A stretch of DNA of 52,420 nt from a virus (taxonomy: Duplodnaviria > Heunggongvirae > Uroviricota > Caudoviricetes): the IMG/VR virus record IMGVR_UViG_2698536477_000003. One strand, given 5' to 3'. The position numbers were made by a program. Shown piece by piece: positions 48,001 through 51,000 of this stretch. The first letter of the stretch is position 1; each line of letters begins with the position of its first letter.

Positions 48001-51000
48001 TACGCCGAAGGCCGTGAAGGCGGCAATGGATGTGGCAAATGAAGCGAAAACAAAGGCAGAAGAGGCTGCAGCAGGAGGTGGTGTTCCCGGTCCGAAAGGA
48101 GAGAAAGGCGACCCCGGAGCACAGGGTCCGAAAGGTGAAACGGGAGCAACAGGCCCCGCTGGTCCGCGGGGAGCGCAGGGACCGAAAGGGGAGAAAGGCG
48201 ACCCCGGTCCCAGAGGTGAGCGTGGAGAAACCGGGCCGATGGGACCGCCCGGGGCATCAGACGGGAAGAGCCGGGTTGTGGGTATCAGGCTGGGTAATAA
48301 ACAGACTTATGCGCCGCAAACAGACAGCACTACATGGGCAGTGGATTTGGATATTGGTGCAATGATTACGGGGATTGGCGGTTACAACGACGGAAACAAA
48401 ACCCTTATTGACAGGGTATCTTACAGGCCGCTTCAGGTGACATTTGATGGTTCTCAGTGGCGTACAGTCAGCGTGGGTGAGTATGTGTCGTCAGGAGCTT
48501 CGGGGTTTGAGTATTTTCCATTATAAAGCGCATCATCTTTCAGACATGTAACCGGGAGGACTTACAGATGCACATAAAGAATTTCAGACAATACACGCCG
48601 GAAAATCCGGATGTGCCGGGTGCGATGTACCTGAAATCAGAGGATGGTCAGGACTGGTATGAGTGTCAGTCGTTATTTTCAGCAGAGACGCTGAAGGTGG
48701 TTTATAACAGTGCCGGGGTCATTACCGGCATCGGCAGGGTGGCATCAGTTCTGTGGCCTGTGAACCAGAGTGTGGTGGAGGTGGCGGATACGGAAGAAAA
48801 CCGCAAAGCTGACATCTCGGGGCGCTGGGGTTTTGACGGGGAGAAAATCACGGACCTGCTGACCGCGGAGAAAGCGCGAGGGATGAAGGGCGATGAAATT
48901 AACGCCTGGCGTAATGCGATGGAAGCGGCGAACTACACGTTTGAGCACAATGGCCGGAAATGGGACTACGGGAAGTCAACGCAGACGCGTCTTGAGCCGT
49001 CGGTGGCGGCAGCGAAATCGGGGAAACTGCCGGAGGCGTTTTTCTGGACGGATGCGGAAAACAATGATGTGGAAGTGACAGCAGAAGAGCTTATAGCGCT
49101 GAGTGAAGCGGCAGAGCAGGCGATGTTCACCAAAGGGATGGAAATCCACGTTCGCCAGCGCACCATGAAGAAAGAGCTGGAAAAGCTGACCAGTGCGGAT
49201 GAGATACTGGCATACAGGGTTGGCTGGGCACAGGAATGACAGACAAAAAGATGGGGGACCATCACCTCCCCCATGAACTGCGTTGATTATGTCATTATTG
49301 TGAAGAGACCTTACCTACACAGATAAAGAATGCCACGGAAAAGTTAATTCCGGAAGTGACGGAGCTCTCATTTTTCGTGCATCCTGTTGATATGGATGAT
49401 TTTTCAGATTTCCGGAAGTCCGTATTTTGCCCGGGCGCGGTTGCATGCTTCATTCGCGATGCCATTTTCTCCGGGCATTGTGAATTCCCTGTATGTGGAC
49501 AGGATTTTAGTCAGTGAATAAACCAGTCGTCCGCTGTTTCCCAGACATTTTGAAGCGTTTCTTGTACAAACTCTTGCGCGGATTCTTTATCCACGGCTCT
49601 TAAAATAGTGAGTCCATCATTGCTGGCAGATTTAACGATCACTTCTACATCGTCATAACGTTTACTGATGCGTCGGGTTAATTCTTCCTTTAACGCATCC
49701 ACAGCACCGGTTGGCATTTTAGTCATTTTTTCTTTGGCTATGCAGATTTCAATACGCATAAAAGTCCCTCTATACTGTGTTTGTATACAGTATTATTTTT
49801 AACTGTATGGATAAACAGTGTCAAGAGGTCTTATTTCTGCTCCTTTGGAGCTCTTCAAAACGATTATGTAAAGATTTCGGATACAGTTCGGTATATACCT
49901 GCCATAGCACGTTTAATGAACGATGCCCTGTAACCTGGGCGACTTCCTCAATACTAAAACCAGCCTCAAATAAGCGACTTGCCCCTTCTCTACGCAAATC
50001 ATGGTATCGCAGATCTTTAATACCTAATTTGCTTCTTACCCTCTGGAATCCCGCAGTAACAGAAGTGCTGTTATATGGAAAAATGAATTCTGATTTTTTG
50101 GGTTGTCGTTGGACGATATCCCAGGCTTCCCCAAGCAAGGCTACTTTCATATGGTTGCCTTCCTTTTTACGTGGATCTTTCCTGTCTCTTACGAGTATGG
50201 ATTTTTGTTCCTGATCGAGATCCTCCCATCGTAATCGGCATACTTCACCGATTCGCATACATGACCACACAGAAAATTTGAGGATATCAACGAACGGAAT
50301 TTTTGAGCATTTATGTGTAGATCGTTGTTGAAGACCTTCAATGAGCATGTCCAGTTCATCAGATGCCGGTCTACGATTACGACGATTTGATTTACCAATT
50401 AAACCAAGTTTAAGTAGATATGGACGAGCGGCTTTTGCTGGGTTTGATGTGTAATTAATTCCATATACAGGTTTGGCAGCATCCAGAACACTGCCAAGAT
50501 AACTAACATCGTGGCTAACTGTAGCTGGACCTGCACCAGCGTTGTTTCTTAGCCTGCAATGTTCAATTACGTCATTTTCTGTCAGTTCAGATAGTTTGAT
50601 CGCGGAGATGTCACTATCCATAAGCAGTTCCAGCACATATCTTTTAGTACGGCCTGCTTTACCTCCGGCATTTGGGTCATTTAAATATTTGTGTAGTAAG
50701 TCACGGACTGTAAGTCCGTCAACTGCATTTGATGATGGAATGCCATATAGATCTAATTCCATCACTTTCTGTGTGCCCCATGTTTTGGCATGAGCATGTT
50801 TAGGGAATGTTTTGCTTTCCCTGTAAGTGATAACACCTTTTTCTTTGATAATCACATTACAGCGATAGCGTGGTGTGCCATCGGATTTTAGTCGTTTCTC
50901 TATGTTATAGTACGCCATTACACGACCTCGTTATTTCGGGTTCCCATAAAACGTGGGAACCTGTGCGGGAACCTAACGCGAGAAAAATAGCCTGAAATGT

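What the first reader, a model, noticed from the sequence alone, without database searches (positions are those of the whole stretch)
49775..49818. Two tandem LexA boxes in front of a prophage dinI-like gene
ctgtgtttgtatacag and ctgtatggataaacag both fit CTGT-N8-ACAG and lie 16-60 bp upstream of the DinI-like gene (49511-49759, minus strand), immediately downstream of the integrase stop. DinI modulates RecA filament activity, and RecA-stimulated cI autocleavage drives induction, so a phage copy under SOS control could tune induction and hence Stx release.
Basis: partly seen in the sequence, partly recalled or inferred. Interest (0 to 1): 0.45.

Follow-up and report, generated by a model that had tools for sequence, protein, structure and literature searches.

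The report
SOS-controlled dinI gene in Stx2 prophage
A small prophage gene resembling the bacterial RecA modulator DinI sits behind a promoter with two strong, conserved binding sites for the DNA-damage repressor LexA. The feature is real, but it is an already known kind of phage cargo gene, and any effect on Shiga-toxin phage induction is untested.

Summary
Two CTGT-N8-ACAG boxes lie at 49775-49790 and 49803-49818. They flank the -10 region of a minus-strand promoter whose perfect -35 (TTGACA) overlaps the integrase stop codon. This promoter drives an 82-aa DinI-family gene (49511-49759). Both boxes score like genuine E. coli LexA operators (23.1 and 21.2 bits; known sites 12.8-27).

The -35 hexamer and the CTG/CAG cores of both boxes are invariant across 15 diverged relatives (E. 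coli lambdoid and Stx phages, Citrobacter phiNP, Erwinia, Mixta), although the sequence upstream of the -35 is unrelated. The mobile unit runs from the -35 to the stop codon, as expected for a moron. It occurs in 1748 of 5426 complete E. coli genomes.

LexA-controlled prophage dinI homologues are already documented (Gifsy-1/2/3, PhiKO2). So this is a new member of a known kind, with a two-operator layout instead of one.

The Stx link is plausible but untested. The window does carry stx2, CI has an S24 self-cleavage domain, and 7 of 8 RecA-contact residues of DinI are kept. However, dinI deletions in Gifsy prophages did not change induction.

More unusual side finding: a LexA box inside the cI coding sequence, under clear DNA-level selection.

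The parts
49819..49824 (-). -35 hexamer TTGACA (perfect consensus). The integrase stop codon TGA (49821-49823) lies inside it.
   Evidence: Sequence; promoter scan; invariant TTGA.A in 15 relatives. The homologous site is annotated as a promoter in phage mEp460.
49801..49820 (.). LexA box 1 (20-mer AACTGTATGGATAAACAGTG on the + strand; core 49803-49818). It fills the -35/-10 spacer.
   Evidence: 21.2 bits. The CTG and CA(G) cores are invariant in the clade alignment. Present in 21 of 22 distinct upstream sequences from viral contigs.
49795..49801 (-). -10 region TAAAAAT (TAAAAA with a 17-bp spacer, or AAAAAT with an 18-bp spacer).
   Evidence: Promoter scan: TTGACA-18-AAAAAT, 10 of 12 matches. 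An A/T-rich block is kept between the boxes in all relatives. The start site is inferred, not mapped.
49773..49792 (.). LexA box 2 (20-mer TACTGTGTTTGTATACAGTA; core 49775-49790). It begins 2-3 bp after the -10 and covers the inferred transcription start.
   Evidence: 23.1 bits, HI-like index 2.6. The CTG and CAGT cores are invariant.
49765..49770 (-). Shine-Dalgarno sequence GAGGGA, 5 nt before the ATG.
   Evidence: Sequence; purine-rich block with an invariant G in the alignment.
49511..49759 (-). DinI-like gene (82 aa).
   Evidence: Pfam DinI E=4.6e-20. Full-length match to E. coli DinI structures 1GHH/7YWA, E=1.5e-13. Below the NCBIfam equivalog cut-off, 74 against 111 bits, so it is a paralogue. 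RecA-contact residues are mapped.
49404..49499 (-). Gene remnant downstream of dinI on the same strand. There is no intact cargo gene or antirepressor here.
   Evidence: PGAP calls a C-terminal fragment of a YkgJ-family gene at the identical locus of strain JNEC-KY172. Pfam could not confirm it because it is too short. No Gifsy antirepressor or irsA homologue anywhere in the window.
49251..49274 (-). Terminator-like hairpin plus T-run; the likely 3' end of the dinI transcript, placed between dinI and the convergent tail-fibre-assembly gene.
   Evidence: Terminator scan. Assigning it to dinI is an inference.
49821..50918 (-). Tyrosine integrase directly upstream on the same strand and divergent from dusA (context only; not part of the mobile dinI unit).
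   Evidence: Pfam Phage_integrase; dusA 51007-52044; same arrangement annotated in JNEC-KY172.

Best explanation
The segment 49760-49824 is a sigma-70 promoter on the minus strand. It has a consensus -35, a weak A/T-rich -10, and two high-affinity LexA operators. One operator fills the spacer and the other covers the transcription start. In an undamaged lysogen, host LexA should occupy both operators and keep the DinI-like gene off. When RecA filaments cleave LexA during the SOS response, the promoter opens and the 82-aa protein is made.

Promoter plus gene form a self-contained mobile unit (a moron) that has been shuffled between many lambdoid prophages. The protein is a paralogue of DinI and most likely binds the groove of the RecA filament, the same site used by LexA, UmuD and CI-type repressors.

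Shown here: operator quality, promoter geometry, conservation, unit boundaries, family membership and retention of contact residues.

Inferred: two strong operators make derepression late and threshold-like, and the protein then modulates RecA-stimulated cleavage, including that of this phage's S24-type CI. The direction and size of any effect on induction and Stx2 output are not known. I put about 0.3 on a measurable braking effect.
For: Promoter and operators.

Conservation: TTGA.A of the -35 and the CTG/CAG cores of both boxes are invariant in 15 sequences with 57-100% protein identity, while the DNA upstream of the -35 is unrelated (integrase 3' end, att-like repeats, cdt or other genes).

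Across Enterobacterales, 72 of 80 DinI-family genes have at least one box. The two-box layout is found in 8 of the 14 loci with at least about 52% protein identity to the window protein. K-12 dinI and Gifsy-1 dinI each have one box at -39.

Unit boundaries: the matches in phages cdtI, PhiR12 and BP-4795 end at window 49824/49825 and at 49513/49516/49462.

Prevalence: 1748 of 5426 complete E. coli genomes, up to 7 places per genome.

Protein. Contact residues L13, L21, W71, W77, F78, E24, D76 of DinI (PMC9926225) correspond to M15, L23, W73, W79, F80, E26, D78.

Precedent: Gifsy dinI homologues are LexA-controlled and induced 4.6- to 23-fold by nalidixate (PMC3121763, PMC8072944). [quoted passage not shown]

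CI has an S24 domain with GDSM and KR motifs visible in its translation.
Against: There is no binding or expression data for this clade. None was found in the searchable literature, and the supplement of an EHEC ciprofloxacin study does not mention it.

The acidic contact residue E69 of DinI is N71 here.

The host already has a strongly induced chromosomal dinI, so the phage copy may be redundant.

No terminator separates the integrase gene from the promoter, so read-through could give LexA-independent expression.

One natural variant with an identical protein has lost the CTGT of box 1 (L003), and 6 of the 14 closest genomic relatives keep only one box. The second operator is therefore dispensable.
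Confidence: 0.82

Rival explanations
1. The promoter-plus-dinI unit is mainly an SOS expression cassette for whatever lies downstream. Here the cargo has decayed, so the locus has little consequence for induction of this phage.
For: In Gifsy prophages, dinI is the first gene of a LexA-regulated operon whose essential product is the downstream antirepressor (PMC3121763). In BP-4795 an effector-like ORF84 follows dinI on the same strand with no terminator-like site between them. In phiNP, hicA-hicB-sat follow on the same strand. In this window only a gene fragment follows.
Against: In most contexts the next gene is convergent (cdtC, nleC, tail-fibre genes). The mobile unit ends at the dinI stop codon. 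The DinI ORF itself is intact and conserved in about a third of E. coli genomes, which argues for selection on dinI itself.
Confidence: 0.2
2. The phage DinI promotes induction rather than restraining it. It would stabilise RecA filaments and so prolong CI cleavage.
For: DinI stabilises RecA filaments and is described as assisting filament formation (PMC9926225 and the work of Lusetti et al. cited there). A phage benefits from committing once damage is severe, and two strong operators would delay expression until then (inference).
Against: DinI occupies the same groove and contacts the same RecA elements as lambda CI (PMC9926225), so competition is at least as likely. There are no data for this protein.
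Confidence: 0.2
3. The paired palindromes act as an RNA element (an integrase terminator or retro-regulator, or a hairpin masking the dinI ribosome site in read-through transcripts) or as recombination sites, rather than as LexA operators.
For: In a read-through RNA the two boxes can pair into a 70-nt hairpin that ends just before the AUG (-22.5 kcal/mol, z=-3.75). The boxes are 78% complementary inverted repeats of each other.
Against: Across 15 relatives the consensus fold is only -2.1 kcal/mol, with no compensatory changes. Only the invariant CTG/CAG cores pair. The boxes travel with dinI in contexts that lack the integrase. No Rfam family matches.
Confidence: 0.03
4. The two motifs are chance palindromes in A/T-rich intergenic DNA.
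For: None beyond the low information content of CTGT-N8-ACAG.
Against: statistics; conservation.
Confidence: 0.01

Closest known systems
Chromosomal E. coli dinI (b1061) and its SOS promoter
   Same: Same protein family. Full-length alignment with about 45-49% identity; the C-terminal W-E-x-A-D-D-W-F helix and 7 of 8 RecA-contact positions are kept. LexA box close to the start codon.
   Different: The chromosomal gene has one box at -39; here there are two, at -33 and -61, flanking the -10. The phage protein is below the NCBIfam equivalog cut-off, carries E69->N, and sits on a mobile unit in prophages.
Gifsy-1/-2/-3 dinI homologues of Salmonella (LexA-regulated dinI-antirepressor-irsA operon; PMC3121763, PMC8072944)
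   Same: A prophage-borne dinI homologue directly controlled by LexA and induced by DNA damage.
   Different: Gifsy has a single box, only 41% protein identity, a location in the early region after the replication genes, and a terminator before the promoter. Its point is the downstream antirepressor acting on a non-cleavable repressor. Here there is no antirepressor or irsA and CI is S24-type.
PhiKO2 din-like gene, Serratia phage OS31 p60 and similar 'dinI next to the tail-fibre genes' morons (PMC7556043)
   Same: A DinI-like gene facing the tail-fibre genes, with a LexA site just upstream. LexA regulation is reported for PhiKO2.
   Different: Those have one reported box. I did not re-examine the PhiKO2 dinI promoter here.
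Phage 186 Tum / PSP3 and Fels-2 split tum (as discussed in PMC3121763)
   Same: LexA-controlled phage genes containing a DinI-like module.
   Different: Tum is an antirepressor fused to a DinI-like half. The gene here is a stand-alone DinI paralogue.
Multi-operator SOS promoters (lexA, recN, colicin genes; own knowledge)
   Same: More than one LexA dimer over one promoter, giving tight repression.
   Different: Here the centre-to-centre spacing is 28 bp and varies from 24 to 29 bp in relatives. Fixed phasing or cooperativity is therefore not implied.

Membership tests
E. coli-type LexA operator (SOS box) | Match to taCTGT-(AT)4-ACAGta at the level of proven operators | tested here: met
   23.1 and 21.2 bits against 12.8-27 for 21 recalled operators; HI-like index 2.6 and 5.4 against a median of 5.3. 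The matrix rests on sites recalled from memory; the dinI site was verified against K-12.
E. coli-type LexA operator (SOS box) | Position overlapping the promoter core elements or the transcription start | tested here: met
   Box 1 lies between the -35 and -10; box 2 starts 2-3 bp after the -10. The start site itself is inferred.
E. coli-type LexA operator (SOS box) | Conservation of the CTG/CAG cores in orthologous promoters | tested here: met
   Invariant in 15 relatives down to 57% protein identity; 72 of 80 family members have at least one box.
E. coli-type LexA operator (SOS box) | LexA binding in vitro and LexA-dependent, damage-inducible transcription | not testable with these tools
   Shown only for relatives (Gifsy: PMC3121763, PMC8072944; PhiKO2: cited in PMC7556043).
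DinI family (PF06183) | Profile match above the curated threshold over the full length | tested here: met
   72.2 bits against a cut-off of 24.2, residues 16-80 on profile positions 1-63 of 63; E=1.5e-13 to 1GHH/7YWA over residues 1-81.
DinI family (PF06183) | RecA-contact residues: hydrophobic pocket L13, L21, W71, W77, F78 and acidic patch E24, E69, D76 (PMC9926225) | tested here: inconclusive
   Six identical, one conservative (L13->M15), one lost charge (E69->N71). Binding itself was not tested.
Chromosomal DinI orthologue (NCBIfam NF007893 equivalog) | Score above the equivalog cut-off | tested here: not met
   74 bits against 111. It is a paralogue; PGAP names it 'DinI-like family protein'.
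Gifsy-type LexA-controlled antirepressor operon | Small antirepressor gene (gfoA/gftA type) and irsA downstream of dinI | tested here: not met
   tblastn with Gifsy-1 STM2621.1n and STM2620 gives nothing below E=1 in the window. Only a gene fragment follows dinI.
Gifsy-type LexA-controlled antirepressor operon | Immunity repressor that is not self-cleaving | tested here: not met
   CI (7716-8408) has Peptidase_S24, E=1.2e-18.
Phage moron (autonomous cargo unit) | Own promoter; sharp boundaries of similarity between otherwise unrelated contexts; location between the tail-fibre genes and int/att | tested here: met
   Similarity to cdtI, PhiR12 and BP-4795 stops at the -35 (49824/5) and at or just after the stop codon. 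Contexts are shown.
Phage moron (autonomous cargo unit) | Own terminator | tested here: inconclusive
   The nearest good terminator-like site on the minus strand is 49274-49251, about 240 bp past the stop codon.

The most novel reading that the evidence does not exclude
The dinI promoter may be one node of a LexA regulon built into this Stx2 prophage. The nodes would be dinI (2 boxes), panAT (3 boxes), a box inside cI that is under DNA-level selection, and a box at the start of the methylase gene between Q and stx2. On this reading LexA occupancy, and not only RecA-stimulated CI cleavage, sets the induction threshold. The phage DinI would be released only at deep LexA depletion because of its two strong operators. 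It would then compete with CI for the RecA groove and, in EHEC strains carrying up to 7 copies, act as a dosage-dependent collective brake (or timer) on Stx-phage induction.
Probability: 0.2. Interest if true: 0.6.

Novelty: new member of a known kind. Interest (0 to 1): 0.3.

Why it matters
SOS-inducing antibiotics raise Stx production by inducing Stx prophages. A LexA-controlled RecA-filament binder carried by the toxin phage itself, present in about a third of complete E. coli genomes and in several copies in O157 strains, is a plausible modifier of how much damage is needed before CI is cleaved.

If it has a measurable effect, it would help explain strain-to-strain differences in Stx output. 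It would also be easy to test by single-gene deletion and in vitro cleavage assays.

As it stands, the finding mainly adds a well-supported member, and a two-operator variant, to the known class of SOS-regulated prophage dinI genes.

Tried and rejected
- **Antirepressor or irsA downstream of dinI, as in Gifsy.** None found by tblastn. Small ORFs in 49240-49510 have no Pfam match. PGAP calls a YkgJ-family fragment there.
- **RNA-structure explanation.** The window sequence alone folds well, but there is no covariation and almost no consensus energy across relatives. Rejected.
- **Known RNA families in 49100-50000.** None.
- **Integrase or att-related role for the boxes.** Rejected because the boxes move with dinI into contexts without the integrase.
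- **Expression data for E. coli prophage dinI-like genes.** Not found in the main text or supplements of an EHEC ciprofloxacin study or in other literature searches. The report that the prophage gene nleA is SOS-regulated in EPEC is my recollection only and could not be retrieved.
- **First viral-contig scan with CI.** It returned only 97-100% identical genes and was uninformative. A second scan with the Klebsiella homologue gave the needed diversity.
- **Sigma-70 consensus scan around the intragenic cI box.** Found nothing at its threshold.
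Full report
**Setting.** The window is a lambdoid Stx2 prophage inserted at the 5' end of dusA. stx2A lies at 18406-19365, preceded by Q (16015-16395), a DNA methylase and three tRNA genes. The immunity repressor is at 7716-8408 (-) and has HTH and Peptidase_S24 domains. The tail genes run to a tail fibre gene (46799-48526) and an assembly gene (48568-49239). Three features follow: a DinI-like gene (49511-49759, -), a tyrosine integrase (49821-50918, -) and dusA (51007-52044, +). The nearest phage record is Stx phage 1720a-02 (96% identity over the locus). An identical locus occurs in E. coli JNEC-KY172 next to dusA and pspG.

**The observation.** Read on the minus strand, the 61-bp gap between the integrase stop codon and the dinI ATG is:

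TTGACA | CTGTTTATCCATACAG | TTAAAAATAATA | CTGTATACAAACACAG | TATAGAGGGACTTTT | ATG

- The -35 is a perfect consensus hexamer, and the integrase TGA stop lies inside it.
- Box 1 fills the spacer.
- An A/T-rich -10 follows: TAAAAA at 17 bp or AAAAAT at 18 bp (10 of 12 consensus matches).
- Box 2 begins 2-3 bp after the -10, so it covers the inferred transcription start.
- A GAGGGA ribosome site sits 5 nt before the ATG.
- Annotators of phage mEp460 independently marked the homologous stretch as a promoter.

**Statistics.** CTGT-N8-ACAG occurs 5 times in the window against 0.72 expected. A 20-bp weight matrix built from 21 E. coli operators gives 23.1 bits (box 2) and 21.2 bits (box 1), within the upper half of genuine sites (12.8-27, median 20). 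The operator list was recalled from memory; the dinI operator was checked against K-12. Shuffled windows give 0.025 sites of at least 17 bits, whereas the real window has seven.

**Conservation.**
- In 56 viral-contig and phage loci with 80-100% identical proteins there are 22 distinct upstream sequences, and 21 keep both boxes. The exception (L003) has CTGT->CTAT in box 1.
- The architecture also holds in more distant relatives: BP-4795, Stx2d_112808 and phage cdtI (73-79% protein identity), Citrobacter phiNP (57%) and Erwinia and Mixta genomes (57-58%). In all of these the DNA upstream of the -35 is completely different.
- In a 15-sequence alignment the invariant columns are TTGA.A of the -35, the CTG and CA(G) of box 1, the CTG and CAGT of box 2, one G of the ribosome site, and the last two bases of the start codon. 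The bases inside the boxes vary freely.
- Across 80 DinI-family loci from Enterobacterales, 72 have at least one box within 120 bp of the start. Chromosomal-type genes, Gifsy-1 and Klebsiella phages have one box at about -39.
- The two-box layout is a trait of the subfamily to which the window protein belongs. It occurs in 8 of the 14 loci with at least about 52% identity; the other 6 have one box.
- Box spacing varies from 24 to 29 bp, so strict helical phasing is not required.

**A mobile unit.** Nucleotide similarity to phages that carry the gene in other contexts begins at the -35 (window 49824/49825) and ends at or just beyond the stop codon: 49513 in cdtI, 49516 in PhiR12 and 49462 in BP-4795. 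The unit is thus promoter plus ORF, the classic shape of a moron. It lies in the usual place, between the tail-fibre genes and int/att. Matches occur in 1748 of 5426 complete E. coli genomes, with up to 7 places per genome and 4-5 in several O157:H7 strains.

**The protein.**
- It matches Pfam DinI at E=4.6e-20.
- It aligns end to end with E. coli DinI (1GHH; 7YWA is the RecA-DinI complex) at E=1.5e-13 and about 45-49% identity.
- It falls below the NCBIfam equivalog cut-off, so it is a paralogue.
- The cryo-EM study of RecA filaments (PMC9926225) names the DinI contacts: L13, L21, W71, W77 and F78, which form the pocket for RecA F203, and E24, E69 and D76, which form an acidic patch facing K232, R243 and K245.
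- These map to M15, L23, W73, W79, F80, E26, N71 and D78. Six are identical, one is conservative, and one charge is lost.
- The same paper shows that LexA, UmuD and lambda CI use the same RecA elements. This is the structural basis for any competition between DinI and a CI-type repressor.

**What follows dinI.** In Gifsy prophages, dinI leads a LexA-controlled operon whose key product is a small antirepressor (PMC3121763). Here no homologue of the Gifsy-1 antirepressor candidate or of irsA exists anywhere in the window. The 270 bp between dinI and the convergent assembly gene hold only a fragment that PGAP calls the C-terminus of a YkgJ-family gene (Pfam could not confirm it). A terminator-like hairpin lies at 49274-49251. 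In some relatives, cargo does follow on the same strand without an intervening terminator: ORF84 in BP-4795 and hicAB-sat in phiNP. The promoter may therefore also drive downstream genes elsewhere.

**Rivals tested.** In the window alone, the two boxes can pair in a read-through RNA into a long hairpin. Across relatives there is no covariation, and the consensus energy is -2.1 kcal/mol. The pairing is therefore a by-product of two near-palindromic DNA sites. No Rfam family matches. A role in integration is excluded because the boxes move with dinI, not with the integrase.

**Mechanism.**
- Shown: a well-formed promoter with two operator-grade, strongly conserved LexA sites in repressing positions, driving an intact DinI paralogue.
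- Established for relatives: LexA control and 4.6- to 23-fold damage induction of the Gifsy dinI homologues (PMC3121763, PMC8072944), and LexA regulation of the PhiKO2 gene (cited in PMC7556043).
- Inferred: tight repression in the lysogen; late, threshold-like derepression because two strong operators must be vacated; and binding of the product in the RecA groove.

Gifsy dinI deletions had no effect on induction (PMC3121763), but those phages do not depend on repressor cleavage. Because no terminator separates the integrase gene from the promoter, some LexA-independent read-through is possible.

**Novelty.** LexA-regulated prophage dinI genes are a known kind, and the gene is routinely annotated. 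I found no description of the two-operator promoter of the E. coli lambdoid and Stx clade in the searchable literature. Subscription journals are not covered by that search. I rate it a new member of a known kind, with modest interest.

**Side findings.** The same matrix picks out five further operator-grade sites.

1. **Upstream of panAT.** Boxes at 1397, 1420 and 1501 lie behind a perfect TTGACA-N16-TATAAT promoter and in front of a Panacea-domain antitoxin gene and its partner. These genes are annotated PanA and PanT in phage PhiR47_1.
2. **Inside cI.** A 25.3-bit box sits at 8180-8199, inside the linker-coding part of cI.
   - In 89 distinct genes of this CI family (E. coli, Salmonella, Klebsiella-type and metagenomic), the CTGT and ACAG bases never vary.
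   - Third-codon-position entropy inside the box is 0.11, against 1.01 in the flanking linker and 0.92 gene-wide.
   - The encoded residues change radically (C/Y/H; K/I/L) while the DNA stays within the LexA consensus.
   - This is selection on DNA, not on protein.
   - A conserved TTTACC lies 17 bp before TACTGT in the sense orientation. This could be an internal LexA-repressed promoter, but that is speculation (one search finds nothing at its threshold).
3. **Start of the methylase gene.** A 24.1-bit box covers codons 3-9 of the methylase gene between Q and stx2. It is retained, with invariant wobble bases, in Klebsiella phages including PhiKO2.

These sites suggest that the prophage is wired to LexA at several points.

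Noticed in passing
window 8180-8199 (inside cI, 7716-8408 minus strand; gene nt 210-229): A near-perfect LexA box (TACTGTTTTTACATACAGTA, 25.3 bits) lies in the linker-coding part of the CI repressor gene. In 89 distinct genes of this CI family the CTGT/ACAG bases are invariant. Third-codon-position entropy is 0.11 in the box against 1.01 in the flanking linker, and the encoded residues vary radically (C/Y/H, K/I/L). This is DNA-level selection for an intragenic LexA site. A conserved TTTACC-17-TACTGT in the sense orientation might be an internal SOS promoter. I found no literature on it.
   Followed up: partly
window 1354-1520, upstream of ORFs 1523-2011 and 2034-2582 (+): A perfect TTGACA-N16-TATAAT promoter is followed by two adjacent LexA-like boxes (1397-1416 and 1420-1439, 18.2 bits each) and a third (1501-1520, 17.1 bits) abutting the ribosome site of a SocA/Panacea-domain antitoxin gene. 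The gene pair is annotated PanA/PanT in phage PhiR47_1. This is an apparently SOS-controlled toxin-antitoxin pair at the other end of the prophage.
   Followed up: partly
window 16967-16986 (codons 3-9 of the DNA methylase ORF 16959-18017, +): A LexA-like box (TACTGTAAAAATATCCAGTT, 24.1 bits) sits at the very start of the methylase gene, which lies between Q and the tRNA genes and stx2A. The box is kept in Klebsiella phage Kp4866-6, PhiR40_1 and PhiKO2, with invariant wobble bases inside it. Whether it controls a promoter reading toward stx2 is unknown.
   Followed up: partly
L083 (phage BP-4795) 182-1908; L085 (phiNP) 241-1835: In BP-4795 the same two-box dinI unit is followed on the same strand, with no terminator-like site, by the effector-like ORF84 ('putative avirulence protein'). 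In phiNP it is followed by hicA-hicB-sat. The SOS promoter may therefore co-express virulence or toxin-antitoxin cargo in some phages.
   Followed up: partly
window 49821-49824: The integrase stop codon TGA is embedded in the -35 hexamer TTGACA of the dinI promoter, and no terminator separates the two genes. Integrase transcripts should therefore read into dinI unless blocked by bound LexA.
   Followed up: no
L093, L095, L096 (genome contigs): Close DinI-like loci with enterobacterial-type promoters sit in assemblies labelled Chryseobacterium, Saccharibacteria and Wohlfahrtiimonas. These are probably contaminating or mis-binned enterobacterial phage contigs.
   Followed up: no
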